Source of the DNA: a virus
Length of the DNA: 64,000 nucleotides
Virus record (IMG/VR): IMGVR_UViG_3300036768_001133
Location: 8,796-72,795 of that record
Strand: one strand, 5' to 3'
The number at the start of each line of letters is the position of its first letter. The stretch's first letter is position 1. A model generated the notes under the pieces. That model was not told the DNA's origin. It was given only the letters and a program-made list of their open reading frames with translations, and ran no database searches. Shown piece by piece: positions 1 to 27,600 of this stretch. The position numbers were made by a program, and so were the translations under genes.

Positions 1-432
1 ATCAAATACATAATCTATTACCTTGCCTCTATCCTTGTAATATCCCTTATAGATAAGTTTAGGGTTTATAGCATATACTCCACGACCTATGCGTATTAAA
101 ACATTACAAGATACCAAATTATATATGCTTTTTTCTACACACCTTATACTAATACCTAATGTATCCCCTATTATACCCTTATTACGTTTATTTAATACAA
201 TATGCACCAAATCACTACCATAATAGACCTCTCCTAATAAATAGAATAATATCCTATAATCTGTAATATTCACTAAACAACTACACCAACTCATATCCTC
301 CACATATAACTGCACAAACATTTCTACCTCTACACGCTTCACTATACTACTACGCTCCACTAATACACTACCTCCACCTACATTCGTAGTGTCTAAACGC
401 TCATATATTACCTTCCTTGTTCGCTTGGACAT
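1..432 (-). CDS. RepL-like winged-helix replication/regulatory protein (3' end runs off the window; absent from the ORF track)
   Basis: My translation from ATG at 432: MSKRTRKVIYERL...VKRVEVEMFVQLYVED...ISIRCVEKSIYNLVSCNVLIRIGRGVYAINPKLIYKGYYKDRGKV. It is open to base 1, aligns by eye with 7444..7926 and has the RepL-type NPxxxxKG motif after the HTH-wing. Confidence 0.8.
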   Translation of the reverse strand, partial: MSKRTRKVIYERLDTTNVGGGSVLVERSSIVKRVEVEMFVQLYVEDMSWCSCLVNITDYRILFYLLGEVYYGSDLVHIVLNKRNKGIIGDTLGISIRCVEKSIYNLVSCNVLIRIGRGVYAINPKLIYKGYYKDRGKVIDYVFD

Positions 433-460
433 ATACTATTTTTATATGAAAAAAACTTCA

Positions 461-526
461 TTAACGAACTATTGGTTCGGTATTAACGAACTATTGGTTC
501 GGTATTAACGAACTACTGGTTCGGTA
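461..526. repeat. 3 x 22-bp tandem iteron-like repeat (ttaacgaactattggttcggta)
   Basis: Units 461-482, 483-504 and 505-526 (one mismatch in the third); internal dyad cgaac-N5-gttcg; lies just upstream of the RepL-like gene at 1..432. Confidence 0.95.
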
Positions 527-536
527 CTTTTTTCGT

Positions 537-561
537 TAATTCCTTATCTATCAAGCAGATA
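537..561. promoter_or_regulatory. 25-bp dyad IHF-like site, module 1
   Basis: taattccttatctatcaagcagata contains TATCAAgcagATA, one mismatch to the E. coli IHF consensus WATCAANNNNTTR; 10 bp from the repeat array. Confidence 0.5.
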
Positions 562-686
562 CGTATTCATTTGCTATTATCTCACTCTAGCAAAAACTAT
601 TACCTAAAACTACATAAAAAAAATAACAAAAATACCTTATCTAAGGCATATTTGTTACTCCTATGTATAAACCTAACTCCTAAAAA

Positions 687-1115
687 CTAATTCTCAACTT
701 TGCTAATATCTACCTTTTCAAAATTCATCACTAACCTAAACTTCCCCTTCATCAATATATCACTCACCCTATACAACCCTCTCCTAACCCTCTCTAAAAA
801 ACCATAATCCTCTAATACCCTCAATATCATTAACAAATATACACGCTTCACACCTAATAACTCCATCAAATACCTCATACCCTCCCTGTCCCTCGTGCTA
901 AATAAACCATTCCCATATAATACACTTATCTCATATATAGCCTTCATACAACGTGTAAAATTTATTAAACGCTCATCTCCTAAACCCCTCCCCATCATAT
1001 AACCCATAAACTCTATCATATCATATACATTCCCACCCCCTACAACTACCTCTATATAACCATTCCCTATCTCCCTAAAATTAAAAAACTCCTTTAACTT
1101 TACAAACCCTTTCAT
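687..1115 (-). CDS. Winged-helix DNA-binding protein, divergent RepL-like
   Basis: C-terminal LMELLGVKRVYLLMILRVLEDYGFLERVRRGLYRVSDILMKG has the HTH-wing pattern of the two RepL-like proteins, with a degenerate NP..KG motif. Confidence 0.55.
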   Translation of the reverse strand: MKGFVKLKEFFNFREIGNGYIEVVVGGGNVYDMIEFMGYMMGRGLGDERLINFTRCMKAIYEISVLYGNGLFSTRDREGMRYLMELLGVKRVYLLMILRVLEDYGFLERVRRGLYRVSDILMKGKFRLVMNFEKVDISKVEN

Positions 1116-1126
1116 AATATAATAAT

Positions 1127-2977
1127 TTATCCAAATACAAATTTATCCCCCTCCCTACGCCATGTAGGAAACTTAAAACTACTACTACGCTCCTCAAAAC
1201 CTAAACGCAACTCCTCATCATATATCAAACATAACATACTCGCTATCGTCCTGTCATACTCATTCCCCTCAAAATTAAAATTCATTATGTCTTCCACTTG
1301 CTCCCTTATCCATAACTTCTCCATACCCTCCTTCAAATACTTACTAAACCTTTCCACAGCAAACATCTTCCTCCTATAATCCATAACATAACCATACTTG
1401 TTCGTTACCCTACTATACTTTAACCCTATATTCAATAACCTCGGACTACTCGCTAATATACTACCCCAACCTACCTGCTTCAAATACGAAATTATACCTA
1501 TCTTACTATGCTCCACCATCACCTTCGCATTGTAATACAAACATAAACTTAATACACCCTCGTAAAAATCCTCTACATTGCTCGGTCTATCTACATACTC
1601 CGCAACAAACTTCCCCTCCAACCTGTCAAATACATATACAGCCCCCTTACTCTTACTCCATAAACTCTTGTCTTGGTCATAACTATCACAACCCGCTATG
1701 TACCTCCCCTCCTCCACTACCCCACCTACACGTATAGGCTCGTCTATTATTACAAAATTCCCTAACCTGTCCTCCTTAAACTCTACCTCCACCTCAACAC
1801 CACTCCTATATCCATTACAATATAATACACCCCTCTTCACTATTTCCCTATACTCCCTATCACTTATCAATAACAACTCCTCTAACCGCTTCCTCACAAA
1901 CGAAAATGGCGTTATATTGCTTACTAAAAACGCTTCATTTACCTCAAACGGCATCTCTTGTATAAAACTCTCATATGCCCCTATATCACCACTCTCTAAT
2001 AACTTGTTACGCTTCCCCTCTAAATAAACCCTCGCCCCAACTTCATCACTTACCCCATCCTCACCATAATACCCCTCTAACTTCTTGTAAGCAGGTATAA
2101 AATAACATACCCTCTTCCCATTATCAACCTCAAAACTATACAAATTAAAAGCATCAGGATTAAAAAACATATCCCTCGCCTCTATACTACCACCACTCTT
2201 CATCTCTCCACCAGTACCAAATAATATCGCTACACCAGTCCTTATACTACCCCTGTACAAACTATTCTCCACAGCCTTGTAACTATCCTTCAAATTGCTC
2301 TTCCAACTACCTACCTCATCTAATATAACCCTCCTCGGTCTCCCACCCCTCGCCTTACCACTATCATCAAATATTATCATCTCTACCTCACTATTAAAAC
2401 CCTTTCGCAACCTCTCCCCCTTCTCCCCTATATACTCTACCCCACTCATTATATACCCCTCCTTGTCCTTTATCTTACTATGACGCATCTCCTTCGGCAA
2501 ACTATCTAATCCCTCCACCATCTTCTTCCATAACTTTATACCATGTGGATACGTACTCGCACCCAATAAAGCATAACTATTCCTGTAAAATGTATAACTA
2601 TGCGATAATATACAAGCCCCTATGTAACTCTTACCATAACCCCTCCCAGTTATTACAAGCAAATTCTTCCCACTACTAAATGCTAATTCCACTAAATAAA
2701 ATAACTCCCTGTCCTCCTCACTATAATTCGGATAACCTAATACTACCTTACCACCCTCTAACTTGTTTATCTTAAAATAATTCAAAAAAAAATAATACTC
2801 CCCAGTTATCAACTTACCCCCTACTTCATACCCGTATAAACACCTATTCAACTCCTCCCTCCACCAACCTATATACCCCTCCTCTCCCTCTACATAAGGA
2901 CAACCTAACCTCGCCCTAATCAATTCATCTATATACCTGCGCTCCATAATAAAATATATTTTAATAAAATATACCAA
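1127..2977 (-). CDS. terL: Terminase large subunit (crAss-like)
   Basis: N-terminal ITGEYYFFLNY, Walker A TGRGYGKS, Walker B VILDEVG, GTGG coupling motif, RNase H-like nuclease IAGCDSYDQD...DR. The true start may be MERRY at 2947. Confidence 0.93.
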   Translation of the reverse strand: MVYFIKIYFIMERRYIDELIRARLGCPYVEGEEGYIGWWREELNRCLYGYEVGGKLITGEYYFFLNYFKINKLEGGKVVLGYPNYSEEDRELFYLVELAFSSGKNLLVITGRGYGKSYIGACILSHSYTFYRNSYALLGASTYPHGIKLWKKMVEGLDSLPKEMRHSKIKDKEGYIMSGVEYIGEKGERLRKGFNSEVEMIIFDDSGKARGGRPRRVILDEVGSWKSNLKDSYKAVENSLYRGSIRTGVAILFGTGGEMKSGGSIEARDMFFNPDAFNLYSFEVDNGKRVCYFIPAYKKLEGYYGEDGVSDEVGARVYLEGKRNKLLESGDIGAYESFIQEMPFEVNEAFLVSNITPFSFVRKRLEELLLISDREYREIVKRGVLYCNGYRSGVEVEVEFKEDRLGNFVIIDEPIRVGGVVEEGRYIAGCDSYDQDKSLWSKSKGAVYVFDRLEGKFVAEYVDRPSNVEDFYEGVLSLCLYYNAKVMVEHSKIGIISYLKQVGWGSILASSPRLLNIGLKYSRVTNKYGYVMDYRRKMFAVERFSKYLKEGMEKLWIREQVEDIMNFNFEGNEYDRTIASMLCLIYDEELRLGFEERSSSFKFPTWRREGDKFVFG

Positions 2978-2978
2978 C

Positions 2979-3494
2979 CTATATCAACCTGTCTATTAAA
3001 CCCTCCTCCATATTCCCCCTCCTACGCTTACTGCCAGATACACCCCCTAACCCTAATACCAATCCCAACTCCTTCCTCAATTTCACCATATCTAATATCG
3101 CCTTCACCTTCTTCGGCTCACTCTCTACATCTATATCACTCCCACTATAATCCCTAACTACCCTGTCTATACGCTCCACTAACCTCCTATAAACACGCTC
3201 CTCCTGATTGCCTACCTCCTCTAATATCCTATCCACTAAATTAACCAATACCCCCAATAAATTACTATACTCCTCCCTGCTCATCTCCCTACTAAATATG
3301 TCCCTGTATATCACCTCCCCACGCAACGTAATGTCCCCATATACATATACACTGCAATAATACCAATATACATACCTCCTCAAAAAATATTCCTCAACCT
3401 CCCCTAAACCTACTACCAAATTACGCCAATATAAACGATAATCCTCACTTACCTCATATCTATCCCCAATACGCTCTATTATACCTAATTCCAT
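2979..3494 (-). CDS. Hypothetical protein upstream of TerL (possible terminase small subunit by position)
   Basis: 171-aa ORF abutting terL; function inferred from position only. Confidence 0.6.
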   Translation of the reverse strand: MELGIIERIGDRYEVSEDYRLYWRNLVVGLGEVEEYFLRRYVYWYYCSVYVYGDITLRGEVIYRDIFSREMSREEYSNLLGVLVNLVDRILEEVGNQEERVYRRLVERIDRVVRDYSGSDIDVESEPKKVKAILDMVKLRKELGLVLGLGGVSGSKRRRGNMEEGLIDRLI

Positions 3495-3497
3495 ATA

Positions 3498-4268
3498 CTA
3501 ATCCCCTTTTTTACTTATACACTTGCATACACCATATAACTCACTAATATCTAAACTCTCACCAACCCCATAACGCTTGTTACCATAATTCACCCAACCT
3601 ATATTCCCCAACCTGAACCTTATCGTAAAATTATTCCCATTCCTGCCATAATGCCCAAAATCTAAACTACTATCACCTCCCCTTAACCTTAATAATAACC
3701 TTAATAAACTACCCCATAAAGCCTCTAAATACCCGTGAAATACTAAATGACCATAATCACTACATAACATCCTATACCTCCATAAATAACTACCTAATAC
3801 ATCCCCTCCCCTCAATATACCCCTGTAAAATATACCCATTACCCTCAATAAATAAAAATATACATATAACCTCCAATGAAATAAATACCTATCCTTTATC
3901 ACTACTACATTATACCCCCTCTCCAATATCTCCCTGTACATCAACCCATAATCTATATCTATAAACCTGTTTATCCTTAACCTGTAATCCTGTAAATAAT
4001 ATATCTCCCTTAAACAAACACCATTGTAAAATAAACCATTCCCCATCACCATTATACTATAATAATCCCCCTCCCCCTCCCCACCTAATAACCAATCCTC
4101 CATCAATAAACCCCCATATATACCACCACTTATACATACTAAACCATTGCAATTCCTATGACTATACATTATGTTCATCATAAACATAAATAATATCTCC
4201 CCAATTATACCACTATACCCATAACCACGCATTATACCCCTAATACGCTCCTTTAATGAAATAACCAT
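3498..4268 (-). CDS. Hypothetical protein, first gene of the leftward arm
   Basis: 256-aa ORF packed against the next gene with a promoter upstream; extreme composition (no Pro, one each of Ala, Thr, Gln). Confidence 0.6.
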   Translation of the reverse strand: MVISLKERIRGIMRGYGYSGIIGEILFMFMMNIMYSHRNCNGLVCISGGIYGGLLMEDWLLGGEGEGDYYSIMVMGNGLFYNGVCLREIYYLQDYRLRINRFIDIDYGLMYREILERGYNVVVIKDRYLFHWRLYVYFYLLRVMGIFYRGILRGGDVLGSYLWRYRMLCSDYGHLVFHGYLEALWGSLLRLLLRLRGGDSSLDFGHYGRNGNNFTIRFRLGNIGWVNYGNKRYGVGESLDISELYGVCKCISKKGD

Positions 4269-6009: not shown

Positions 6010-6138
6010 ATGGCAAGGATTCTATTCTTTATATTTCTTTTACTACTTTTAAATGCTGTTATGGTAATATTAGCATATTCGCAAATAAAATATGGATTGT
6101 ATAAAACAAAAAATATAAAATACATTAAAAAAATATAA
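6010..6138 (+). CDS. Small single-pass membrane protein (42 aa)
   Basis: MARILFFIFLLLLLNAVMVILAYSQIKYGLYKTKNIKYIKKI; partly duplicated at about 9600-9753. Confidence 0.5.
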   Translation: MARILFFIFLLLLLNAVMVILAYSQIKYGLYKTKNIKYIKKI

Positions 6139-6151
6139 AATACATTAAAAT

Positions 6152-6730
6152 ATGGAGTTCATTATTGAATTAAGCAGGTTGAGGGAAACTCCCTGCGAAA
6201 GATACCTTAAACATTTTGAAAATGGGAAAGTAGATGCTCTCAAGCTATTTAGAGAGCTTGGACAGAAATACGAATGGTTATACAACCATTCGGATTATGA
6301 TATTATAAGATTTGAAATAGAAAACGGGATATTTAATTGGGAAGAATATAGTTACTATGTTCCCCAATATTGTCCTGAATATTTTGATGGAAATAAATAC
6401 AATTGGAGAGAAGATAGCTGGGCAATAGTTCAATATTGTCCAGAGCATTTTGATGGGGATAAATACAACTGGGAAAAAGATAGTTGGGCAATAGTTAAAT
6501 TTTGTCCTGAATACTTTGATGGAAATAAATACAACTGGAAAGATCAAGGTTGGGCAATAGTTAAATATTGTCCTGAATACTTTGATGGAAATAAATACAA
6601 TTGGGAGAAACATAGCTATTATGTAGCTATGTATTGTCCTAAATTGTTGGACAAGAATAAATACAATTGGAGAGAAGATAGTTGGGCAGTATCTGAATAT
6701 TGTCCCGAACTATTGAAATATAAACCTTAA
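6152..6730 (+). CDS. 22-aa tandem-repeat protein, paralog 1 (6 repeats)
   Basis: Conserved ~60-aa N-domain, then repeats YNWxxx(S/G)(WA/YY)(I/V)xxYCPxxxDxxK, then a PELLKYKP cap. Confidence 0.9.
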   Translation: MEFIIELSRLRETPCERYLKHFENGKVDALKLFRELGQKYEWLYNHSDYDIIRFEIENGIFNWEEYSYYVPQYCPEYFDGNKYNWREDSWAIVQYCPEHFDGDKYNWEKDSWAIVKFCPEYFDGNKYNWKDQGWAIVKYCPEYFDGNKYNWEKHSYYVAMYCPKLLDKNKYNWREDSWAVSEYCPELLKYKP

Positions 6731-6738
6731 CATTTCAT

Positions 6739-6770
6739 AACACACAAAGTTACAAACTTTGTGTGTTTTT
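6739..6770 (+). terminator. Rho-independent terminator
   Basis: aacacacaaagtt-aca-aactttgtgtgtt 13-bp stem followed by Ts, directly after paralog 1. Confidence 0.75.
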
Positions 6771-7044
6771 ATTTGTGTTCGTTATTAGTTCAAAAATGTA
6801 ACAACAAAAATTTAAAAAATAGGCAAGTGTGATAAAGCCAATTACATAGACTACAAGTTCCTAGATAAAAAGCCCACTATTAGAGATTTTCAAGAAAAAA
6901 ATCTACTTACAAATTTTGAACTTTTTCAAGATATTGCCGCTTAACTCACGTTATATAATATTTATATGTGTGTAATAATTCACACATATAGATTTTTTTT
7001 ATGCTTACGCATACGCTAAATATATAAGAAAAGAAAATATAGGA

Positions 7045-7069
7045 TAATACATTGTTTATCAATGTTTTA
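7045..7069. promoter_or_regulatory. 25-bp dyad IHF-like site, module 2
   Basis: taatacattgtttatcaatgtttta contains an exact WATCAANNNNTTR match (7057-7069) and a one-mismatch copy on the other strand. Confidence 0.55.
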
Positions 7070-7080
7070 CGATAAAAATT

Positions 7081-7145
7081 ATTACTCTATGGGGCTAATG
7101 AAATTACTCTGTGGGAGTAATTTCAATAGTCTGTCAGAGTAGTAA
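7081..7145. repeat. 3 x 22-bp degenerate iteron-like repeat (attactctgtgggagtaatttc type)
   Basis: attactctatggggctaatgaa / attactctgtgggagtaatttc / aatagtctgtcagagtagtaa; the middle unit is an attactc-N5-gagtaat dyad. Confidence 0.7.
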
Positions 7146-7214
7146 AAAATTTAAAAGAAGTCCTTTTTTTTTAGTTTATGTGTGCAATATACTAATATAT
7201 AGTAAAATAAGAGT

Positions 7215-7239
7215 TAAATAATTGATTATCATATATTTA
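7215..7239. promoter_or_regulatory. 25-bp dyad IHF-like site, module 3
   Basis: taaataattgattatcatatattta has an exact WATCAANNNNTTR match on the minus strand (7215-7227) and sits in a longer inverted repeat taagagttaaata...tatttaactctta. Confidence 0.55.
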
Positions 7240-7250
7240 ACTCTTATGAA

Positions 7251-7315
7251 AATGTCGTTTTCGGTTGATAATAATGTCGTTTTCGGTTAATAATAATGTC
7301 GTTTTCGGTTAATAA
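7251..7315. repeat. 3 x 22-bp tandem iteron-like repeat (aatgtcgttttcggttaataat)
   Basis: Units start at 7251, 7273 and 7295; followed by an AT-rich tract and the RepL gene. Confidence 0.95.
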
Positions 7316-7443
7316 AATACACTATTTTGAGTGTATTTTATACATTATTTGATATGTATAAAGAAAATGTATTTTAAGCTTTTTTTTTAATTTTTAATAC
7401 TTATATTTGTGTGTATTAAATACTAATTATTAGATGTAAAAAT

Positions 7444-7926
7444 ATGAAAAATGCAAAGACAAAAATTTATGAAGAGATTAAAACTGTAATAAACGAAGAT
7501 GGGGAAATAATTACAGCTGAATTTACAACAGTAAAAAAAGTAACTAAGGAAACGTTCTTACAGGTTTATTTAGATGATTTTTACTCCTTAATGAGAATTA
7601 GAGAGGGAAACGAATACAAATTAGTTCTGTGGATAGGTAAAAATATGAATTTCGATAATGAAATAATACTGGTTAAGGAAATAAAAAATAGAATCGCCAA
7701 TGAAATTGAGTGTAATGTAAGAACCATAGATAACTCAATACGGTCGTTGGTATCTAAGGGCATTTTAATCAAGTCTGGGAGGGCTATTTTTACTTTAAAC
7801 CCACATTTATTTTTCAAGGGCAGCTTAGACCAGCGGAATAAACTCAAAAAGCTTATAAAGAAAGTAGAATACGATTTCTTAGAAGAAGATGAAACAAAAG
7901 AAATACAAAGTGATAGCAAAGGTTGA
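7444..7926 (+). CDS. repL: RepL-family replication initiator/maintenance protein
   Basis: IANEIECNVRTIDNSIRSLVSKGILIKSGRAIFTLNPHLFFKG (wHTH plus NPxxFFKG); TATATTTG -7 box at 7402-7409. Confidence 0.8.
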   Translation: MKNAKTKIYEEIKTVINEDGEIITAEFTTVKKVTKETFLQVYLDDFYSLMRIREGNEYKLVLWIGKNMNFDNEIILVKEIKNRIANEIECNVRTIDNSIRSLVSKGILIKSGRAIFTLNPHLFFKGSLDQRNKLKKLIKKVEYDFLEEDETKEIQSDSKG

Positions 7927-8125
7927 TAATAACAAGTTTGTAAAGTATAACGTAAATAATTTGATTCTTTTCACGAAATTTCTTGACAGGAGCTTTCAGG
8001 TTTGTTGGCGTTGGTTCAATGTGATAGCAATATTTTGTTTGTTTTATATGGCTACTATTTTTACATTTGTGTTAGTAGTTAGTTTTATATTATTACCTAT
8101 AAAGGTTATACTATGGTTAGTATGA
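7889..8125 (+). CDS. Hypothetical protein with C-terminal hydrophobic segment
   Basis: 78-aa ORF overlapping both neighbours. Confidence 0.55.
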   Translation: MKQKKYKVIAKVDNNKFVKYNVNNLILFTKFLDRSFQVCWRWFNVIAIFCLFYMATIFTFVLVVSFILLPIKVILWLV

Positions 8126-9414
8126 TAGATGTTGAATTAGACAGCATATATTATTGTCTAATAAACAATAGCAATATACGTATATTTGATAGGGAATACT
8201 ATACAAAGGGTGATACTTTGTATATGTATGACAAGTTAGTTGAAATATATAATAAAGAAAAATATGTCAGTTTGAATATATTTAGGAATGAGATAAAGGG
8301 GGATAGTATATTGCATAAGTATTTATCTGTATATAATGATAAATATGTATGTAGTTATACTATTGAAGAATGTGAAAAGATAATGAGGAGAGACTACAAT
8401 AGAAGGGTATTTATAGATATGATAAATGATAAGTCCTTATTAAGGGCTAGTGATGATAGGATATTGGAGGTGATGATGGAGGTCATAAGCAAGTTTAGGG
8501 GGAATAAGATGGAAAATATAGTTAGTAATTTTGATAAGATGGTTGAATACATAATTAATGTAGATAATAACAGGTATAAAATAGGTATAGAGGGTATAGA
8601 TAGTTCTATATCTATAGAGCCTGATAGGTTTATAGTGATAGGTGGGGCGAGTGGTAGTGGGAAGACAGCCTTCAGTGTATTTTTAATAAACAAGCTATGT
8701 CAGTTGTATAGTGATAGCTTGTATGTTTTATTTATAAGCCTTGAGATGAGTGAGATAAGAGTGATGATGAGGTTAATAAGTTTATTATCGGGAAAGAGCA
8801 TTGGGGAGTTAAAGGCTGTAGATAAAAGTTTTTTTGAAGGGTATAGGGATATAATTAGTGGTTATTCATTAGATATAATGTATAGCACTATGGATATTCC
8901 AAAGTTATCTGCAGTATTGCAGATGCATATAAATGAAGCAAATAGAAAAGGTAAGATACCTGTGGTTTTTATAGACCATTTTGGAGAAGTAAGTGGTTTA
9001 GATGAACATACAGCGAAATCTAACACAGATAAAGTAACCGCTTTGTGTAAGGATGTAGCAAGACAAGGCGGCATATGTTTCGGTCTTACGCAATTGCGTA
9101 AGGATTTGTTAGATAAGAGGAATGAAGGCAGTTATTACAAGCCTTCAAATGGATACATTATGAATAGTCAGAGTGTAGAAGCGAGGGCAGATGTAATAAT
9201 GCACTTGTGGAGACCTGAATATCATAATGTATTAGAGATAATAGAAGAGGAAAAAGATATGATAAGAGTAATAGATACAAGAGGTAGTATATGTATAGTA
9301 AATGATAAGAACAGGGATTTTAAGAAGGGTGATATATGGCTGGATTGTGATATTAAAACGAATAGTTTTAAGGATATTCATAGTAGTAAAATACAAATTA
9401 TTAATAAATTTTAA
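8113..9414 (+). CDS. dnaB: DnaB-like (SF4) replicative helicase
   Basis: Walker A GASGSGKT, H1a FISLEMS, H2 VFIDHF, H3 LTQLRK, H4 EARADVIMHLWRP, arginine finger KNR. Confidence 0.92.
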   Translation: MVSMIDVELDSIYYCLINNSNIRIFDREYYTKGDTLYMYDKLVEIYNKEKYVSLNIFRNEIKGDSILHKYLSVYNDKYVCSYTIEECEKIMRRDYNRRVFIDMINDKSLLRASDDRILEVMMEVISKFRGNKMENIVSNFDKMVEYIINVDNNRYKIGIEGIDSSISIEPDRFIVIGGASGSGKTAFSVFLINKLCQLYSDSLYVLFISLEMSEIRVMMRLISLLSGKSIGELKAVDKSFFEGYRDIISGYSLDIMYSTMDIPKLSAVLQMHINEANRKGKIPVVFIDHFGEVSGLDEHTAKSNTDKVTALCKDVARQGGICFGLTQLRKDLLDKRNEGSYYKPSNGYIMNSQSVEARADVIMHLWRPEYHNVLEIIEEEKDMIRVIDTRGSICIVNDKNRDFKKGDIWLDCDIKTNSFKDIHSSKIQIINKF

Positions 9415-9424
9415 TTTAATTTAA

Positions 9425-9601
9425 ATGGAAAAGAAAACCATCATTATTGAATGTATAGGCGAGCAATATTCTGCCTATATAGAAGATATACCTGGGTTAA
9501 TATCTTTTGGTACTAACCTAAAAGAGGTATTGGATAACTTAGTGGAGGGATATGAATTACATATGGAACTATTGTCAGAACTGGACGGAGATAACTATTA
9601 A
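9425..9601 (+). CDS. HicB-like antitoxin, N-terminal domain only (58 aa; absent from the ORF track)
   Basis: MEKKTIIIECIGEQYSAYIEDIPGLISFGTNLKEVLDNLVEGYELHMELLSELDGDNY matches the HicB pattern Y.A...D.PG....G....E...N..E..EL..E. Confidence 0.75.
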   Translation: MEKKTIIIECIGEQYSAYIEDIPGLISFGTNLKEVLDNLVEGYELHMELLSELDGDNY

Positions 9602-9761
9602 TGCTATTATAGTAATAGTAGGATATTCGCAAGTAAAAGAAGCAAAGATAGAAGATAAGTATAAATTTGAAGACAAGATACTAATACCCGTATTAGAAGG
9701 GAAATATGGAAAAGAATACTTGTATAAAACAAAAAATGTAAAATACATTAATGTATATTAG
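9552..9761 (+). pseudogene. Probable remnant/paralog of the 6010..6138 membrane peptide
   Basis: NAIIVIVGYSQVK...LYKTKNVKYI matches NAVMVILAYSQIK..LYKTKNIKYI; the 5' part overlaps the hicB-like gene in another frame. Confidence 0.45.
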
Positions 9762-10140
9762 AGCGATAGGTAAAGATATAATTATATCTGTAGATAATGA
9801 TTTATTAAAGCCTTGTAATAGGATAACTTGGTTTTATCCTATTACAGACAAATGTAAAAATAGTATAGTATCGTATTTCAAAAAGCAAGGATATAGTATA
9901 GATATCCTCAAAGAAGAATACATACTATATGAAGATGACTTGTATATTTGGTTATCTGATACAGATAATATACAGGGTATAGATTATGATTGTTTATATT
10001 GTGGTGGTGATAGTTTTGATATGGTAATAAACGGAAAAGAGCATAATATATGCTTAAAAGAAGATAAGCTATATGAAATAGTAATTGGTAATCACTATAA
10101 TAAAAGCAGAATAATAAAGGCAGAACCGAAAAGCCTGTAA
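9751..10140 (+). CDS. Hypothetical protein
   Basis: 129-aa ORF; its last codons (KAEPKSL*) are supplied by the repeated leader element. Confidence 0.65.
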   Translation: MYIRAIGKDIIISVDNDLLKPCNRITWFYPITDKCKNSIVSYFKKQGYSIDILKEEYILYEDDLYIWLSDTDNIQGIDYDCLYCGGDSFDMVINGKEHNICLKEDKLYEIVIGNHYNKSRIIKAEPKSL

Positions 10141-10164
10141 TTAGGGGTAAAAAAAACAAGTAAA
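10116..10164 (+). repeat. Conserved leader, copy 1
   Basis: aaaggcagaaccgaaaagcctgtaattaggggtaaaaaaaacaagtaaa before the ATG of paralog 2. Confidence 0.85.
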
Positions 10165-10743
10165 ATGGAATTTATTGTTGAATTAGAAAAGCTAAGGGAA
10201 ACACCTTGCGAAAGATACCTTGAACATTTTATAGATGGTAAAGTCGACGCTCTCAAACTATTTAGAGAGCTCGATGAACAATATGAATGGTTGTATGCAT
10301 ATTCGGACTATGATATAGTCCGTTATGAAATAGAAAATGGAATATTTGATTGGGAAAAACACAGCCGTTATGTTGCTGCGTATTGTCCTGAATATTTTGA
10401 TGGAAATAAATACAATTGGGAAAAATATAGCTGTTACGTTGCTCAATATTGTCCTCAATACTTGGACAAAGAGAAATACAATTGGGAAGTTGATAGTTGG
10501 GCAATAGTTAAATATTGTCCGCAATATTTTGATAAAGAAAAATACAATTGGAAAACTGATAGCTGGGCAATAGCTGAATATTGCCCACAATATTTCGATA
10601 AAGAAAAATACAATTGGGAGAAACATAGCTATTATGTTGCTATGTATAGTCCTGAACTATTGGACAAAGATAAATATAATTGGAAAGAAGATAGCTGGGC
10701 AGTAGCTAAATACTGTCCCGAACTATTGAAATATAAACCTTAA
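10165..10743 (+). CDS. 22-aa tandem-repeat protein, paralog 2 (6 repeats)
   Basis: Same N-domain, repeat unit and cap as 6152..6730. Confidence 0.9.
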   Translation: MEFIVELEKLRETPCERYLEHFIDGKVDALKLFRELDEQYEWLYAYSDYDIVRYEIENGIFDWEKHSRYVAAYCPEYFDGNKYNWEKYSCYVAQYCPQYLDKEKYNWEVDSWAIVKYCPQYFDKEKYNWKTDSWAIAEYCPQYFDKEKYNWEKHSYYVAMYSPELLDKDKYNWKEDSWAVAKYCPELLKYKP

Positions 10744-10757
10744 TTATTTTTACTACA

Positions 10758-10816
10758 AAAGGCAAAACCCGAAAAGCCTGTAATAAAGTAGGGGTAAAAA
10801 AAACAAGTAAAAAAAA
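10758..10816 (+). repeat. Conserved leader, copy 2
   Basis: aaaggcaaaacccgaaaagcctgtaataaagtaggggtaaaaaaaacaagtaaa before paralog 3. Confidence 0.85.
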
Positions 10817-11431
10817 ATGGAATTTATTATCGAATTAAGCAGGTTAAAAAAAGAACCCTGCGAAAGATATTTAAAGTATTTTATAGACGGCAAAATCGAT
10901 GCTCTCAAGCTATTTAGAGAGCTTGGCGAACAATATGAATGGTTGTACAGACATTCGGATTACGATATTATAGGATTTGAAATAGAAAATGGAATATTTG
11001 ATTGGGGAAAATATAGTTATTATATTGCTGAACTTTGTCCGCAATATTTGGACAAAGATAAGTATAACTGGAAGGAACATAGCTGGGCTGTTGCTGAATT
11101 TTGTCCCAAGCATTTGGACAAAGATAGATACAATTGGGAAGAAGATGGTTGGGTAGTTGCGAAATATTGTCCCGAACTATTGGACAAGGAGAAATATAAC
11201 TGGGAAAAAGATAGCTATTATATTGCGAAATATTGTCCCGAGCATTTGGACAAGGACAAATACAATTGGGAGAAATGCAGCTGGGCTGTTGTTGAATTTT
11301 GTCCCGAGCATTTTGATAAGGATAAATATAATTGGAAAGAAGATAGTTGGGCAATAGCTCAATTTTGTCCCGAACTATTGAAATATAAAAAAGGCAAAAC
11401 CCGAAAAACCTGTAAAAAAGTACAAAACTAA
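10817..11431 (+). CDS. 22-aa tandem-repeat protein, paralog 3 (6 repeats; stop lost, reads into the next leader)
   Basis: Ends PELLKYK-KGKTRKTCKKVQN, with the tail encoded by leader copy 3. Confidence 0.9.
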   Translation: MEFIIELSRLKKEPCERYLKYFIDGKIDALKLFRELGEQYEWLYRHSDYDIIGFEIENGIFDWGKYSYYIAELCPQYLDKDKYNWKEHSWAVAEFCPKHLDKDRYNWEEDGWVVAKYCPELLDKEKYNWEKDSYYIAKYCPEHLDKDKYNWEKCSWAVVEFCPEHFDKDKYNWKEDSWAIAQFCPELLKYKKGKTRKTCKKVQN

Positions 11432-11436
11432 AAAGT
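11390..11436 (+). repeat. Conserved leader, copy 3 (degenerate)
   Basis: aaaggcaaaacccgaaaaacctgtaaaaaagta before paralog 4. Confidence 0.8.
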
Positions 11437-12216
11437 ATGAAATTTATTGTCGAATTAAGCAGGTTAAAAAAAGAACCCTGCGAAAAATACCTTAAACATT
11501 TTGTAAATGGTAAAGCTGACGCTCTCAAATTATTTAGAGAGCTTGGCGAACAATACGAATGGTTGTACAGACATTCGGACTATGATATTATAGGATTTGA
11601 AATAGAAAATGGAATATTTGATTGGGAAAAATATAGCTATTATATTGCCCAATATTGTCCCGAGCATTTGGACAAAGAGAAGTATAACTGGGACGAAGAT
11701 GGTCTTTATGTTGCCGAATATTGTCCCGAGAATTTGGACAAAGAAAAATACAATTGGAAAGACCATAGTTGGGCAATAGCCCAATATTGTCCCGAACATT
11801 TTGATAAGGACAGATATAATTGGGAAGAATATAGTTATTATATTGCTAAATATTGTCCGCAATATTTAGACAAAGAGAAGTATAACTGGGAAAAACAAAG
11901 TTGGGCAATAGCCCAATATTGTCCCAAGCATTTTGATGAGGATAAATATAATTGGAAAGAACATGGTTATTATATAGCCTTATATTGTCCTCAATATTTT
12001 GATAAAGATAGATACAATTGGGAAAAACATAGCTATTATGTTGCGAAATATTGTCCCGAGCATTTGGACAAGGATAGATACAATTGGGAGCAATGTAGTC
12101 GCTATGTTGCCCAATATTGTCCGCAATATTTGGACAAGGACAAATATAATTGGGAAGAACATATTTGGGCAGTAGCTCAATTTTGTCCCGAACTATTGAA
12201 ATATAAACCTTATTAA
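11437..12216 (+). CDS. 22-aa tandem-repeat protein, paralog 4 (9 repeats)
   Basis: Same architecture with three extra repeats. Confidence 0.9.
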   Translation: MKFIVELSRLKKEPCEKYLKHFVNGKADALKLFRELGEQYEWLYRHSDYDIIGFEIENGIFDWEKYSYYIAQYCPEHLDKEKYNWDEDGLYVAEYCPENLDKEKYNWKDHSWAIAQYCPEHFDKDRYNWEEYSYYIAKYCPQYLDKEKYNWEKQSWAIAQYCPKHFDEDKYNWKEHGYYIALYCPQYFDKDRYNWEKHSYYVAKYCPEHLDKDRYNWEQCSRYVAQYCPQYLDKDKYNWEEHIWAVAQFCPELLKYKPY

Positions 12217-12228
12217 AATTTTACATTT

Positions 12229-12459
12229 ATGAAAAAAAGCAAAGTGTCCATTTCAAAAAGAATGAAAATATTAGAGAAACTAATAGATGTAGATGGTTTT
12301 GATGAACTAATAGAAAATTTTATTATTGATTGTTCTTTTGAGCTTGCAAGATATAGACAAGCAGAAGAGCATAATAAAGCTAAAAGGCTTGAAAAGAAAA
12401 TAATTAAATTTCTGGAAAAAGTAAAAACATCAAGAAAACTATACTTAGGAGAAATATGA
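12229..12459 (+). CDS. Hypothetical protein
   Basis: 76-aa ORF with ATGA overlap to the next gene. Confidence 0.65.
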   Translation: MKKSKVSISKRMKILEKLIDVDGFDELIENFIIDCSFELARYRQAEEHNKAKRLEKKIIKFLEKVKTSRKLYLGEI

Positions 12460-12998
12460 TTTACAAAAAATTATCTGAAATTCAAAGTAAAATAAAAGTT
12501 CCTAAAACGCAATACAATAGTTTTGGGAAATATAATTACAGGTCTTTGGAAGACATATTTGAAGAAGTAAAAAAGTATTTAGACGAATACAAACTATCTT
12601 TGTATTTGTCTGATGAAATAGTTTTAATAGGTGATAGATATTATGTTAAAAGTACCGCTATACTTGTTGATGTAGAAGATGGTGCAAAGATAGAAAGTAT
12701 TGCATATGCGAGAGAGGAAGAAAATAAAAAAGGTATGGACGGAAGTCAAATAACAGGAGCATCGTCAAGTTATGCAAGAAAATATGCTCTCGGTTCATTA
12801 TTTTTGTTAGATGATAACAAAGATAGTGATTATACTAATACTCATGATAAAAACGATAAACCTATTTTGACAGAAGACAAGATAGGTAAAGCAGTAGAAT
12901 ATATGAAAGAGAAGAAGATAAGCATAAATGAACTGAAAAAGAAATATACTATAAGCAAAGATATAGAAGACAAGATTTTATCTTTATTAAAAAATTAA
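12456..12998 (+). CDS. ERF-family single-strand annealing recombinase
   Basis: KVPKTQYNSFGKYNYRSLEDI and AREE..KKGMDGSQITGASSSYARKYAL..LFLLDD.KDSD signature. Confidence 0.92.
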   Translation: MIYKKLSEIQSKIKVPKTQYNSFGKYNYRSLEDIFEEVKKYLDEYKLSLYLSDEIVLIGDRYYVKSTAILVDVEDGAKIESIAYAREEENKKGMDGSQITGASSSYARKYALGSLFLLDDNKDSDYTNTHDKNDKPILTEDKIGKAVEYMKEKKISINELKKKYTISKDIEDKILSLLKN

Positions 12999-24683: not shown

Positions 24684-27600
24684 TTATTCTATCTCTAACC
24701 ATTCATCTATATCGTCCTTTAATCTTTGCTCATCTTCCTGTAATCCTTTTCTTATCTCTTTATTTAAGTTATGATACCCTTCTCCATTAAAGGCTTTGTA
24801 AAACTCCTCTACACTATTTAATACCCCTACACTATTCATTGTCTTTCTAAACCCTTTATCAAAATCTAATGTTAGCCAATACCAAGTTGCTTCTGCTAAA
24901 TTGCCTACCCCCTTTACACTAACAAGACCATTCAAGTTAAATATACCCGTGGGCGATAATACTCCAAATATGTTCATATCAGAATAAATGTTTCGTAAGA
25001 TATTAAATAAAAATCTTCTACGCTCTACATAATCTCTATCCCTTTCTTTTTCTTCATCATCAAGCATCATAAAAGCTAAAAACATAGACATTGTATAAAT
25101 GATATTACTTACTGCCCAACGTAACGAACTCATCTGCTCTTCTGAAAATTGCTCCTTTAATATTCTTGTATTTCTTGTTTTTAACACAATAATTAAACTT
25201 CTTAACAAAGTACGTATAATACTTTCTTCATAAGGCATTAACTCTACTACTTCTCGCTTACCTTTGTCATTAACAACTTCTAACCTTTTATAGTTAAAGT
25301 TTCTACCTTTGGGTTTAAGCACATTGTTAATAAAAGGCATATTGAATAGCTTAAACTTTAATAAAGCTCTACCAAAAGGAATACTGCTTAAATATACTTG
25401 GCTACCTTCTGTTAACCCTGCACCTACTCTATTTAAGATTAGTTCTATTCTTCTTATTTGGTTAGCATCATAAGCATCATTCAAATCCCCTTTACCTTGC
25501 AAACCTTGTTTTATTCTATTTTCTAATATGTATTCTTTTAGTTCGTTTGCTCTTTTGTCTTTTCTTTTATCATATACTAACTCTTTCATACCATTTACTT
25601 CTTGTAAGCTATATGCTTCCCAAGTTCCTTCTTTTATCATCTGTGCAGTAAGCACTAATAACTTGATATACATATCGCTCATTTTATCTCCCATAAAGAA
25701 CATATCCATACCTGCTCTTGTGTTAAACATATCTCTTTGTGTTGTTCCTATGCGTTTAGATACTACCCAACGAAGCTGGTCTTCATTTACAAATTGAAAT
25801 TTCTCTGCAAGAAAGAAAGCCTTTTCCATATTAAATGGTAATATCTTAACTGCCTTTGCAAGCTCCTTTGTTCCAAATACATCTTTCCTGCCTGCAAAGG
25901 TACTTGCAATTATCTTGTTAATACTTACAATAAAGGCTTTTGTGTTGCTGGATATATTTAAAGCTAAAGCCGCAAGCGTAGACACACTTTCAGCTATTAA
26001 ACCTGTCTTTTCAATAGACCTCGTTAAAGCATCCTTAGCAAACTTAATACGCTCATTAAATAATACTTTTTGTGCAAAACTATCTATCAGCTCTATAATA
26101 TTACTTTGCTCTCTACCTGTTTCTATTTGTCTTAACTTTGACATTATACGAGCTATGTTCCAAGCTGTCTTGGTATCTTGCAATATCCCATATCGTTCTG
26201 TATTGATGTAGAAAAAGTTTAAAATGCTTCTCAAATCTGTACTTAACTTTTTGTTTAAGTTAATATCTAATTGTCCATTTGCTTTGCCTATAATGCCATC
26301 TCTTACAGCTGTACTACCTAAACTATTTACCATTGAATATAACATTAAAGGCAAATCTGAATAGTCTTTGGCTTTTGAAGTCCGTTGATTGCCTGATAGT
26401 ATATTTTCAAAGTTTTGCAATGAACTTTCTGCACTTTCAGAAAGTAAAGAAAAATCATCTACCTTAAACATAGGTGGTACTAAATATTTAGCAATATGCT
26501 CTATCTCTTTATACTTTAATACCCCTTCTTCACTACCAAACCTATGCTTAAAAGCCTGTAAATACAACTCGCTCAATAAATCACTATAACGCTCTATAAA
26601 TTTTCTTTCAGCATTATTTAATTGCTTCCATTCAGGGTCAATAGGTTTGATAAGTTCAAAAGTATTAAACTTTTCTACTTTACCATTAACAACTACATCT
26701 TGATACTTAAACAAATGTTCATAAAACTTGCCTTCATTATTTGTAAAAGCTATACCTTGTATTTTACTTTTATATTCAGCAAATACATTATCTACTCTTC
26801 TTACATATTCATCAAATTTCTTTTTAAGTAATAGCTTTGCATTGTTATATTTTTCATACAAGAAATTAAAATAAGGGTTTTTGTTTTCTATGTCAGTAGT
26901 AATATAAGAACTAATTTTAGCTAAATCATCTAAACTATTGTAAGCATCTTTGTTATTAGTAACCAAAGAAAAGTATGTTTTCACTAAATAGTAAAACTCT
27001 AAATATAGATTGTCAGAATAAACATTTTTGTAGTTTATTTCTTCTTGTATGTTAGGATACCTTTTAAGAATTTGTTTTATCCTGCTTTCAATAGCATACA
27101 AAAGCGTTTGTGTATCTTTGCCTAATAAATAGTCTTCTATAAAAGTTGGGAAATCTTTGGTGTCAATAGAACTAACATTGGTATAATACCCTTCTAAAAA
27201 CGATAGATAGTCAGGCATTAAACGACTGCTATCATCTATTTTATAGCTATCTTTCAATATACGTTCTAAATGCAAACTATTAAGTACAAACTTATTTTGA
27301 AAATTACTTTGTAACAACAATCTTAATCTTTCGTTGTATTCATTAGGAAATACTTTTCTAATCATAAAAGAACTATCACTTTCGCTCAAACTCTTTACTA
27401 ATCCTAAATCTCCTATTTGAGCATTAGCATTTTTAGCAAGTAGTATTTTAGCAAGTATAATAGTTTGATAAGATAAAGTATCTTCCAAAGTATAGTTTTC
27501 TCCTTCCAATCCATAAGCAAATTTCTCTATCATTTTAGAAAACTTATTTATGAAACCTGTACTTTGGTGGTATCTATCTTTCCAATTATATCCCTTGTTT

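What the first reader, a model, noticed from the sequence alone, without database searches (positions are those of the whole stretch)
6152..12216. Expanding family of modular 22-aa repeat proteins with shuffled variable positions (DARPin/TALE-like logic)
Seen: four paralogs share a ~60-aa N-domain and a PELLKYK(P) cap and carry 6, 6, 6 and 9 repeats (27 in total). The frame (Y/F)(N/D)W.........(Y/F)CP...D..(K/R) is nearly fixed. Variation concentrates after the Trp (EEYS, REDS, KDQG, EKHS, EVDS, KTDS, EEDG, EKCS, EQCS, EEHI) and in a dimorphic pair, WA versus YY (also RY, CY, LY, WV). The first repeat is always xY-type, the last always WA-type, and the internal order differs in every gene. Inference: a helical solenoid binder whose surface is diversified by recombination among 66-bp units. 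It sits in the early arm just upstream of an ERF recombinase. The aromatic/acidic variable residues suggest protein targets such as host defence factors more than a DNA code, but a nucleic-acid code is not excluded.
Basis: partly seen in the sequence, partly recalled or inferred. Interest (0 to 1): 0.85.

Follow-up and report, generated by a model that had tools for sequence, protein, structure and literature searches.

The report
Undescribed 22-residue helical-repeat phage gene family
A phage from a microbial mat carries four old copies of a gene for a previously undescribed kind of helical repeat protein, probably a set of binding proteins made alongside the DNA-replication genes, and related phages carry up to about sixteen such genes in a row.

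Summary
Four paralogs (6152-6730, 10165-10743, 10817-11431, 11437-12216) share a 60-aa N-domain and carry 6, 6, 6 and 9 units of exactly 22 aa. AlphaFold2 gives a very confident alpha-solenoid (pLDDT 96.3). Each unit is an 11-residue helix, a short helix and a loop. No Pfam, NCBIfam, PADLOC, PDB-sequence or fold match was found; ankyrin/DARPin rows at Z about 5 are within noise.

The family is rare: 231 clusters among 1.84 billion representatives. It is absent from 50,697 GenBank phage records. It sits in phage replication/recombination modules and forms tandem arrays of up to 14-16 genes with 3 to about 24 units.

Expansions are lineage-specific. The four copies here are old (dS 0.5-1.7) and under purifying selection, with no long identical tracts. 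A related phage lacks copy B exactly as a cassette.

So the solenoid-binder idea is supported and the TALE-like code is not. Ongoing 66-bp shuffling is not shown, and the function is inferred. This is a new variant of a known kind.

The parts
6152..6730 (+). Paralog A, 192 aa: 60-aa N-domain, 6 units of 22 aa, cap CPELLKYKP
   Evidence: 66-bp period; sister of B in the N-domain tree (98/85)
6739..6767 (+). Terminator-like hairpin (13-bp stem then a T run) right after paralog A
   Evidence: consensus scan only
10116..10164 (+). Shared upstream element of paralog B (begins aaaggca); left edge of the 642-bp B cassette
   Evidence: joint 10115->10758 in a relative's contig
10165..10743 (+). Paralog B, 192 aa, 6 units; modelled by AlphaFold2; absent from a related phage
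10757..10816 (+). Shared upstream element of paralog C
10817..11431 (+). Paralog C, 204 aa, 6 units. The stop after KYK is lost, so a 12-aa tail is read from the shared upstream element of D
11437..12216 (+). Paralog D, 259 aa, 9 units; 198-bp (3-unit) higher-order period
7251..7315 (+). Context: three 22-bp direct repeats (iteron-like) upstream of the RepL-like gene
7444..7926 (+). Context: RepL-family replication initiator
   Evidence: Pfam PF05732, E 8.1e-14
8113..9414 (+). Context: DnaB-like replicative helicase
   Evidence: phrog_19, E 3.5e-28
12456..12998 (+). Context: Erf-like single-strand annealing protein
   Evidence: phrog_155, E 4.2e-45

Best explanation
The four genes are diverged, selectively maintained paralogs of an undescribed phage protein family.

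Shown:
- Each protein is a soluble, acidic, aromatic-rich alpha-solenoid.
- A conserved N-terminal part of about 60 aa starts the stack and ends in a degenerate repeat.
- It is followed by 6-9 units of 22 aa, each an 11-residue helix (W3-Y13), a break at Cys14, a short Pro15 helix and a loop. A cap of CPELLKYKP closes the stack.
- Twelve framework positions hold the stack. About ten positions vary, and five of them form the outer face of the long helix.

Inferred:
- The proteins are made together with the replication/recombination genes.
- They act as binding modules. The constant N-part and framework give the scaffold, and the paralog-specific surface gives each copy a different protein partner.
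- The most likely partners are host proteins that the phage must neutralise or redirect (host takeover or counter-defence).
- Copy number changes by unequal recombination at a shared upstream element of about 50 bp, gaining or losing whole gene cassettes.
- Unit number changes in 66-bp steps over longer times. Neither process is rapid in this genome.
For: - Fold: AF2 pLDDT 96.3, pTM 0.86, with a regular helix/short-helix/loop pattern in every unit. The N-part plus unit 1 alone gives pLDDT 90.2.
- Real genes under constraint: N-domain dN/dS is 0.08-0.28. Framework positions give 0.05-0.26 and variable positions 0.15-0.5.
- Family: 67 homologues and 231 clusters. There are 815 distinct internal units from 194 ORFs, all with the same framework.
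- Scaffold plus variable surface: across the family, entropy is at most 1.3 bits at positions 1, 2, 3, 7, 10, 11, 14, 15 and 19. It is 2.3-3.1 bits at positions 4, 5, 6, 8, 9, 12, 16, 17, 20 and 21.
- Modular use: the repeat module is joined to at least four different flanking domains, all without Pfam matches.
- Context: the genes lie beside RepL, DnaB and Erf here and beside RusA and Gam further on. Elsewhere they lie beside DnaB-like and Sak4 (L018), RecT-like and RuvC-like (L014), and phage RNAP subunits (L016, L024). In L008 a PolIII-alpha-like ORF and a dUTPase-like ORF lie just upstream; I named these by eye from the translations and ran no family search on them.
- Arrays: 13 of 22 metagenome loci hold 2-14 family ORFs side by side.
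- Lineage-specific expansion: the window's four copies form one clade (100/100), and 12 copies from L018 lie on one side of a branch (93/83).
- Cassette gain or loss: a 677-nt contig of a related phage joins 10115 directly to 10758, removing B together with its upstream element at a shared 7-nt stretch.
- Cytoplasmic and not a nucleic-acid binder by charge: pI is 4.8-5.7, and the charged N-terminus has no hydrophobic leader (read).
Against: - No partner is known, and no fused domain or neighbour gives a function.
- No homology or fold link to any known counter-defence protein was found.
- dN/dS stays below 1 at the variable positions. The one exception is a post-hoc set of closest pairs (1.10) that rests on only 5 synonymous differences. 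So there is no signal of an arms race between these four copies.
- The variable positions were chosen from the same data, which biases their dN/dS upward.
- The 8-9 covariation suggests part of the 'variable' surface is structural.
- Surface exposure was inferred from helix geometry, not measured on coordinates.
- Early or middle timing is inferred from gene neighbours only.
- The strain comparison rests on short metagenome contigs laid at 85% likeness.
Confidence: 0.5

Rival explanations
1. Accessory scaffold of the phage's own replication/recombination machinery. In this reading the solenoids bind phage proteins (helicase, RepL, annealing protein) or organise a replication compartment, and the paralogs serve different phage partners rather than host targets.
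For: The genes are consistently adjacent to helicase, single-strand annealing proteins, resolvases and polymerase genes in unrelated phages (the L008 polymerase-like ORF was named by eye). There is strong purifying selection and no sign of positive selection.
Against: Copy number runs from 1 to about 16 between phages, and one copy is dispensable in a close relative. That is unusual for a core replication factor. Lineage-specific expansions fit conflict genes better. The neighbouring replication genes belong to different families in different phages (Erf, Sak4, RecT), so there is no constant partner.
Confidence: 0.2
2. Acidic DNA-mimic or decoy. The negatively charged solenoid imitates DNA or another polyanion and blocks restriction enzymes or other DNA-binding defence proteins, as Ocr, ArdA or pentapeptide-repeat proteins do (these examples are recalled, not tested).
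For: pI is 4.8-5.7, with an excess of 5-12 acidic residues. The rigid elongated repeat fold is confident. The genes sit among early/replication genes.
Against: The net charge is modest for a DNA mimic. Acidic residues are mixed with Lys at the same variable positions (E/K at positions 4 and 5), so there is no regular charge pattern. No fold similarity to pentapeptide or other mimic proteins was listed. A mimic would not need many different paralogs.
Confidence: 0.1
3. Modular nucleic-acid reader (TALE/PPR/PUF-like). One unit would read one base of ssDNA or RNA through the residues after the Trp and the WA/YY pair.
For: The arrays have strict modularity and variable unit number (3 to about 24). 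Each unit has aromatic residues that could stack on bases. The genes lie next to ssDNA-annealing proteins.
Against: The proteins are acidic. About ten positions vary rather than a two- or three-residue code. The 8-9 pair behaves as a structural alternative. No similarity to PPR, PUF or TALE stands above noise: one synthetic PPR row at Z 4.6 sits among ankyrin rows.
Confidence: 0.07
4. Active diversity generator. Frequent recombination among 66-bp units, perhaps helped by the adjacent Erf, would keep reshuffling the arrays within the population.
For: Best-matching units are partly non-collinear (C4-D7 91%, C1-D4 86%, A2-D3 82%). D shows a 198-bp super-period. Contigs of related phages align as mosaics of units, and one contig fits an extra 66 bp in C (joints). 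Unit number varies widely in the family.
Against: No two units are more than 91% identical, and dS between units is about 1.7. The longest exact runs are 29-43 nt between genes and 19-33 nt within genes. A and B have stayed collinear at 4 of 6 unit positions despite dS of 0.7. A second run holds identical sequence wherever it covers the genes. The mosaic joints come from short contigs at 85% likeness and may simply be diverged paralogs.
Confidence: 0.08
5. Assembly artefact or non-coding repeat.
For: Short-read contigs break inside the arrays.
Against: Exact contig pieces from two runs cover the genes. The reading frames are open, with dN/dS well below 1. Homologues exist in many samples. The predicted fold is confident.
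Confidence: 0.01

Closest known systems
Ankyrin repeats / DARPins
   Same: Stacked helical repeats form an elongated binder scaffold with framework and surface positions. They are the best structural rows (6moj_A: Z 5.1, rmsd 5.2 A, 151 residues aligned). Ankyrin genes also form multigene families in large viruses (recalled).
   Different: Ankyrin has a 33-aa unit with two helices and a beta-hairpin loop, against 22 aa here with one long and one very short helix. There is no Ank Pfam match. Z of about 5 is below the level the tool gives as meaningful for helical repeats.
Tandem LRR-protein locus of Flavobacterium psychrophilum (Altae-Tran et al. 2020, PMC10392669; section 6 read)
   Same: Up to 19 tandem paralogs, each with 2-14 repeats of about 22 residues that carry hypervariable positions. 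The N-terminus is conserved, strains differ in gene and unit number, and the repeats stack as a solenoid. This is the same genomic logic as the arrays found here.
   Different: Those are bacterial, secreted or surface-anchored LRR (beta-alpha) proteins with recombination scars and gene fragments. Here the genes are phage-borne, there is no signal peptide, the fold is all-alpha, and the four copies in this window are intact and old.
DUF4116 (PF13475) repeats
   Same: A short helical repeat of unknown function, modelled as an alpha-solenoid (PMC8078820, passages read) and found in some phages. One such phage protein appears at Foldseek E 9.3, which is not significant. I recalled a loose resemblance of its motif to the cap.
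   Different: There is no hit of PF13475 on the whole phage genome at E<=1, and none in hmmscan of the four proteins at E<=1.
Leucine-rich repeat variant (LRV, PF01816; recalled)
   Same: From memory: 24-residue units of alternating alpha- and 3-10 helices in a superhelix. This is the nearest architecture in unit length and content.
   Different: There is no Pfam hit at E<=1, and it is not among the 50 best structural rows. The motif is different. No direct superposition could be run.
TALE / PPR / PUF code repeats
   Same: Modular arrays of variable length.
   Different: Their units are 33-36 aa with 2-3 specificity residues on basic proteins that bind nucleic acid. Here the units are 22 aa, about ten positions vary, and the protein is acidic.
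phrog_658 (unknown function)
   Same: 3 of 4 paralogs match at E 5e-6 to 2e-3.
   Different: Only 19-21 residues (one unit) match, against positions 129-149 of a 161-position profile. The family has no annotation.

Membership tests
New family proposed here (22-aa 'NW-S-CP' alpha-solenoid repeat with N-domain) | Exact 22-aa period with framework [FY]1 N2 W3 S7 [VI]10 A11 [YF]13 C14 P15 [LFI]18 D19 [KR]22 | tested here: met
   27 of 27 units are in register. Column counts are, and the same framework is seen in 815 units of relatives.
New family proposed here (22-aa 'NW-S-CP' alpha-solenoid repeat with N-domain) | Type-I N-domain (PC..[WY]L ... Y.WLY..S.YD.I..EI.N..F.W) | tested here: met
   Alignments A1 and A4: invariant L10, F33, Y40, W42, Y44, D50, F61 and W63 in 34 of 34 rows.
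Ankyrin repeat (Pfam Ank clan) | 33-aa unit matching the Ank profiles | tested here: not met
   The period is 22 aa. No Ank family appears in hmmscan at E<=1.
Ankyrin repeat (Pfam Ank clan) | Helix-loop-helix plus beta-hairpin fold | tested here: inconclusive
   The best rows are DARPins/ankyrins at Z 4.0-5.1, within noise for helical repeats. DSSP shows no strands in the repeat part.
DUF4116 (PF13475) | Match to the family profile above 24.9 bits | tested here: not met
   0 matches at E<=1 in the whole 72.8-kb genome; none.
Leucine-rich repeat (LRR) | LxxLxLxxN motif with a beta strand in each unit | tested here: not met
   No LRR Pfam hit. The model is all-helical in the repeat part. The motif is absent by reading.
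LRV (PF01816) | 24-aa alpha/3-10 repeat profile and fold | tested here: inconclusive
   No sequence hit at E<=1. It is not among the 50 listed structural rows. No direct superposition was possible.
TALE-like code repeats | Variation confined to two residues per unit that set base specificity; basic DNA-binding protein | tested here: not met
   About ten variable positions; pI 4.8-5.7.
Known anti-defence / defence families (PADLOC) | Match to a PADLOC model | tested here: not met
   Only one weak row (TniQ, 17.8 bits, no stretch passing) across 8 proteins.
PHROG 658 | Full-length match to the profile | tested here: inconclusive
   Partial match of 19-21 residues, E 5e-6 to 2e-3, in 3 of 4 paralogs.

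The most novel reading that the evidence does not exclude
Phages of several lineages carry a self-made repertoire of miniature designer-like binders. The scaffold is a 22-residue alpha-solenoid not seen in any solved structure. Each phage lineage amplifies it into arrays of up to about 16 genes by cassette duplication, then diversifies it by unit gain, loss and exchange. Each paralog would neutralise a different host immune or housekeeping protein. This would be a phage counterpart of the ankyrin/F-box multigene families of poxviruses and giant viruses, and a natural analogue of DARPin libraries.
Probability: 0.22. Interest if true: 0.85.

Novelty: new variant of a known kind. Interest (0 to 1): 0.62.

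Why it matters
Helical repeat scaffolds are the main natural and engineered non-antibody binders. A very confidently predicted 22-residue unit with no sequence or fold relative would be one of the shortest alpha-solenoid units known, and a candidate scaffold for design.

For phage biology, long tandem arrays of one gene family are unusual in genomes that are short of space. Such arrays point to strong, lineage-specific selection, typically conflict with the host.

The family is entirely unannotated. It is absent from GenBank phage records and has only 231 clusters in 1.84 billion representatives. Any function found would therefore be new.

Tried and rejected
- Megablast of the whole region and tblastn of paralog D, P0074 and P0060 against 50,697 GenBank phage records: no match.
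- The search for homologous proteins with 'longer' lengths: none of 1173 candidates scored, so no fused long forms were found by that route.
- Atlas: only unnamed viral clusters, best score 0.90. Nothing usable for the N-domain alone.
- Profile of A1 against PDB sequences: only chance-level rows, best E 0.024.
- Foldseek on PDB and BFVD, and VIA-align over 48,161 chains, for both the whole model and the N-part: nothing above noise.
- Viral-contig scans:
  - N-domain pattern: 1 locus.
  - Paralog D: 1 locus.
  - Helicase: none.
  - A degenerate DNA pattern for KYNWE..SWA: the same single record.
- The mixed-architecture alignment A3 was too variable for the pattern tool, which returned an error.
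- Genome contigs: one MAG locus only.
- No RNA holder is listed among the sequencing runs, so expression could not be examined.
- Parts of the arrays have no contig cover in X2-X4. I draw nothing from those gaps.
- A Zn or metal site built from the Cys14 ladder was considered and dropped. Cys14 is replaced by A, Y or S in part of the other 17% of family units, and His17 is not conserved.
- Supplements of PMC10392669 were not seen. They may list further repeat families from that screen.
- Four literature searches found no description of this family.

Full report
**What is there.**
- The window is bases 8796-72795 of a 72,795-bp IMG/VR virus record with direct terminal repeats.
- On the + strand lie four ORFs: A 6152-6730 (192 aa), B 10165-10743 (192 aa), C 10817-11431 (204 aa) and D 11437-12216 (259 aa).
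- Anchoring on [FY][ND]W gives spacings of exactly 22 residues throughout. That makes 6, 6, 6 and 9 units, each array preceded by a 60-aa N-domain.
- Tandem Repeats Finder sees the 66-bp period in all four genes. It also sees 132- and 198-bp super-periods in C and D.
- A search of the whole record finds only these four copies.

**Unit anatomy.**
- In the 27 units, W3 and P15 are invariant. C14 is present in 26 of 27 units, N2 in 24 and S7 in 22.
- Entropy is highest at positions 12, 6, 21, 5, 17, 8 and 4.
- I collected 815 distinct internal units from 194 ORFs of relatives, with the window's own genes left out. They show the same framework: [FY]1 N2 W3 S7 [VI]10 A11 [YF]13 C14 P15 [LFI]18 D19 [KR]22.
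- The same positions vary in those relatives.
- The two strongest within-unit couplings are positions 8-9 (mutual information 0.75) and 16-17 (0.77).
- At positions 8-9 the rule is W followed by a small residue (W-A in 290 of 815 units), or else almost any residue followed by Y.
- I read that as two ways of supplying one aromatic side chain, so the pair is at least partly structural rather than a two-state code.
- The pattern 'first unit xY, last unit WA' holds in this phage only.

**Fold.**
- AlphaFold2 on B, with 25 relatives as its alignment, gives mean pLDDT 96.3 and pTM 0.86.
- Every unit has a helix over positions 3-13, a break at C14, a three-residue helix at P15-x17 and a seven-residue loop.
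- The N-part has two short strands and four helices. Its last stretch (Y.WLY..S.YD.I..EI.N) looks like a degenerate unit (my reading).
- At 100 degrees per residue, the conserved positions 3, 7, 10 and 11 occupy an arc of about 100 degrees. The variable positions 4, 8, 12, 5 and 9 occupy the opposite arc. This is arithmetic on the DSSP helix, because I had no coordinates.
- Foldseek finds nothing at E<=0.001 in the PDB or in BFVD.
- VIA-align over 48,161 chains gives one row at Z>=5, a DARPin (Z 5.1, rmsd 5.2 A, 151 residues). The rest are mostly ankyrin rows at Z 4-5. The tool's own notes place this within the noise for helical repeats.
- The N-part plus first unit, modelled alone (pLDDT 90.2), has a best Z of 2.6.

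**Not a described family.**

| Library | Proteins tested | Result |
|---|---|---|
| Pfam | 4 window proteins | nothing near a cut-off, at E<=1 |
| Pfam | 16 homologues | only P0067, which carries an N-terminal D12 methyltransferase piece |
| Pfam | 35 longer homologues | none |
| NCBIfam | 8 proteins | nothing credible |
| PADLOC | 8 proteins | nothing credible |
| DUF4116 (PF13475) | whole phage genome | no hit at E<=1 |
| phrog_658 (unknown function) | 4 window proteins | 3 match, over a single unit only |

**How common, and where.**
- The word-indexed search gives 67 homologues, all unnamed or 'hypothetical'. A few come from hot-spring MAGs.
- The exhaustive profile search gives 231 clusters at E<=0.001 among 1.84 billion representatives.
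- None is found in 50,697 GenBank phage records.
- The repeat module occurs with at least four different flanking parts, and there are also 25-26-aa unit variants.
- Sequencing runs that hold this stretch are microbial-mat metagenomes. Small shares occur in hot-spring runs.

**Genomic habit.**
- Of the 22 metagenome loci found with the N-domain pattern, my motif scan finds two or more family ORFs in 13, one in 6 and none in 3.
- L018 has 14 consecutive ORFs plus one truncated copy.
- One 17.2-kb contig (L027 plus L020) has 16 ORF pieces, one of which may be split by the locus boundary.
- L025 has 10 ORFs with up to 19 units, and L016 has one gene with 24 units.
- Several of these loci come from sister samples and are not independent.
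- Neighbours that can be named are phage replication, recombination or transcription genes:
  - DnaB-like and Sak4 in L018.
  - RecT-like and RuvC-like in L014.
  - RNAP subunits and deazaguanine-pathway-like genes in L016 and L024.
- In L008 I read a PolIII-alpha-like ORF, two unnamed ORFs and a dUTPase-like ORF by eye. None was tested.
- In the window the order is as follows:
  - A, followed by a terminator-like hairpin.
  - Three 22-bp iteron-like repeats.
  - RepL-like initiator, DnaB-like helicase and a HicB-like ORF.
  - An unknown ORF, then B, C and D.
  - A 76-aa ORF, then Erf.
  - RusA and Gam lie further on.

**History.**
- I built a maximum-likelihood tree of 34 hand-picked N-domains. 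These were 12 of about 15 copies from L018, 6 of 12 from L020, 4 of 10 from L025, all four from the window, and single or paired copies from the other loci.
- The tree puts the window's four copies in one clade (100/100), with A+B (98/85) and C+D (99/80) as pairs. The L018 copies fall on one side of a branch (93/83).
- Expansions are therefore lineage-specific, or else homogenised within lineages.
- The window's copies are old. N-domain dS is 0.52-1.66 with dN/dS 0.08-0.28.
- Units are 52-91% identical in DNA, and no two are the same.
- dN/dS is 0.05-0.26 at framework positions and 0.15-0.5 at variable positions.
- The only value near 1 (1.10) comes from a post-hoc set of the closest pairs with 5 synonymous differences.
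- Because the variable class was defined on the same data, these values are upper-biased.
- The longest exact runs are 29-43 nt between genes and 19-33 nt within genes.
- A and B are still collinear at units 1, 3, 5 and 6 (80-91% identity). Unit 2 in each matches units of D better, and C against D is not collinear.
- So unit-level exchange or turnover happened in the past, but nothing indicates that it is frequent now.

**Cassette turnover.**
- B, C and D are each preceded by a shared element of about 50 bp that begins aaaggca.
- C lost its stop after KYK and reads 12 codons into the element in front of D.
- When contigs of four runs are laid on the region, the best holder (X1) and a second run (X2) carry identical sequence wherever they cover it. 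X2 has other sample and study codes but the same year and habitat, so it may belong to the same campaign.
- Two runs with related phages differ.
- One 677-nt contig in X3 runs from 9754-10115 straight into 10758-10883. This removes B and its element at the shared 7 nt.
- Other short contigs align as mosaics of units from different paralogs. One contig fits an extra 66 bp in C.
- The deletion joint is clean and has 126 nt on its shorter side.
- The mosaics come from short contigs laid at 85% likeness, and I treat them only as hints.

**Interpretation.**
- Shown:
  - a real, constrained, confidently folded alpha-solenoid family of phages that has not been described;
  - a strict framework with variable positions;
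  - lineage-specific tandem expansion;
  - cassette-level copy-number difference between relatives;
  - location in replication/recombination modules;
  - acidic, Trp/Tyr/Cys-rich composition (pI 4.8-5.7; W+Y+F 19-23% against 11.8% in the other long ORFs).
- Inferred:
  - the proteins are cytoplasmic binding modules whose paralog-specific surfaces recognise different proteins, most likely host proteins;
  - they are expressed with the replication genes.
- Odds, which sum to 0.96 and leave a small remainder for readings I have not thought of:

| Reading | Odds |
|---|---|
| Binder of host proteins (best explanation) | about 0.5 |
| Accessory of the phage's own replication or recombination proteins | 0.2 |
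| Acidic decoy or DNA mimic | 0.1 |
| Active shuffling system | 0.08 |
| Nucleic-acid code reader | 0.07 |
| Artefact | 0.01 |

**Comparison with what is known.**
- In logic, the closest published case is the tandem LRR-protein locus of Flavobacterium psychrophilum. It has up to 19 paralogs with 2-14 repeats of about 22 residues, and it differs between strains (PMC10392669, section 6 read). That locus is bacterial, secreted and of the LRR fold.
- In shape, the nearest are ankyrin/DARPin stacks, but only at noise level.
- Four literature searches found no description of this family.

**Verdict.** This is a new repeat family, a new variant of a known kind, with an unusual multigene habit in phages. 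Its function is untested.

Noticed in passing
window 1-4268 (minus-strand genes 1-432, 687-1115, 1127-2977, 2979-3494, 3498-4268): A 4.3-kb block that includes the large terminase (phrog_6681, E 1.8e-76) has a coding strand with only 2-7% C at all three codon positions and 26-37% G. Other minus-strand genes have 11-14% C. Its proteins almost lack Pro, Ala, Thr, Gln and His. The change is sharp at about 4.3-4.5 kb, and the 8.8 kb of genome before the window does not share it. Unexplained.
   Followed up: partly
window 460-526 with 1-432(-), and 7251-7315 with 7444-7926(+): There are two RepL-family initiator-like genes (PF05732, E 4.5e-10 and 8.1e-14; 27% identical to each other). Each is preceded by its own set of three 22-bp direct repeats of different sequence. 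This suggests two iteron-type origins or an initiator/regulator pair.
   Followed up: partly
window 24684-36965(-) and 36978-45626(-): Two adjacent giant ORFs of 4093 and 2882 aa have no PHROG match. The second has only a superfamily-1 helicase motif at residues 1872-1978.
   Followed up: partly
window 11389-11431: Paralog C has lost the stop codon that A, B and D keep after KYKP. It reads 12 extra codons out of the conserved upstream element of D. The same element also supplies the last codons of ORF 9751-10140 in another frame.
   Followed up: yes
window 6108-6150: A perfect 20-bp direct repeat (2.2 copies) lies immediately upstream of paralog A. A lacks the upstream element shared by B, C and D.
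   Followed up: no
window 9425-9601: A 58-aa ORF with a weak HicB-like antitoxin match (phrog_497, E 7e-5) sits between the helicase and the B-D cluster. No HicA-like partner was looked for.
   Followed up: no
L036 (G003:C1:537-971, minus strand): The family copy in this 55-kb virus record is interrupted by one TAG and three TAA. It may be a decayed copy, or a frame or code problem.
   Followed up: no
L008 1834-5637 and 7093-7993: By eye, the PolIII-alpha-like gene and the dUTPase-like gene next to the family copy contain inserted stretches that resemble inteins, and the dUTPase-like gene is split into two ORFs. No tool was run on this.
   Followed up: no
L009 7797-8672: The only hit in 185,579 species genomes is a 291-aa copy in a Chloroherpetonaceae MAG. 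It lies between a 373-aa ORF that I took by eye for DprA-like (not tested) and unknown genes, a phrog_1221 gene and a 1394-aa ORF that I took by eye for helicase-like (not tested). This may be an integrated element and a hint at a host group.
   Followed up: partly
proteins P0038, P0040, P0074, P0059-P0061, P0065; P0032, P0034, P0069: The same repeat module is fused to two other conserved N-terminal domains (KYYKV...GLN...C..GGIYF and NCG.Y.RTI...IGCF.GTF). Neither matches Pfam. Units of 25-26 aa with a KWFD insertion also exist.
   Followed up: partly
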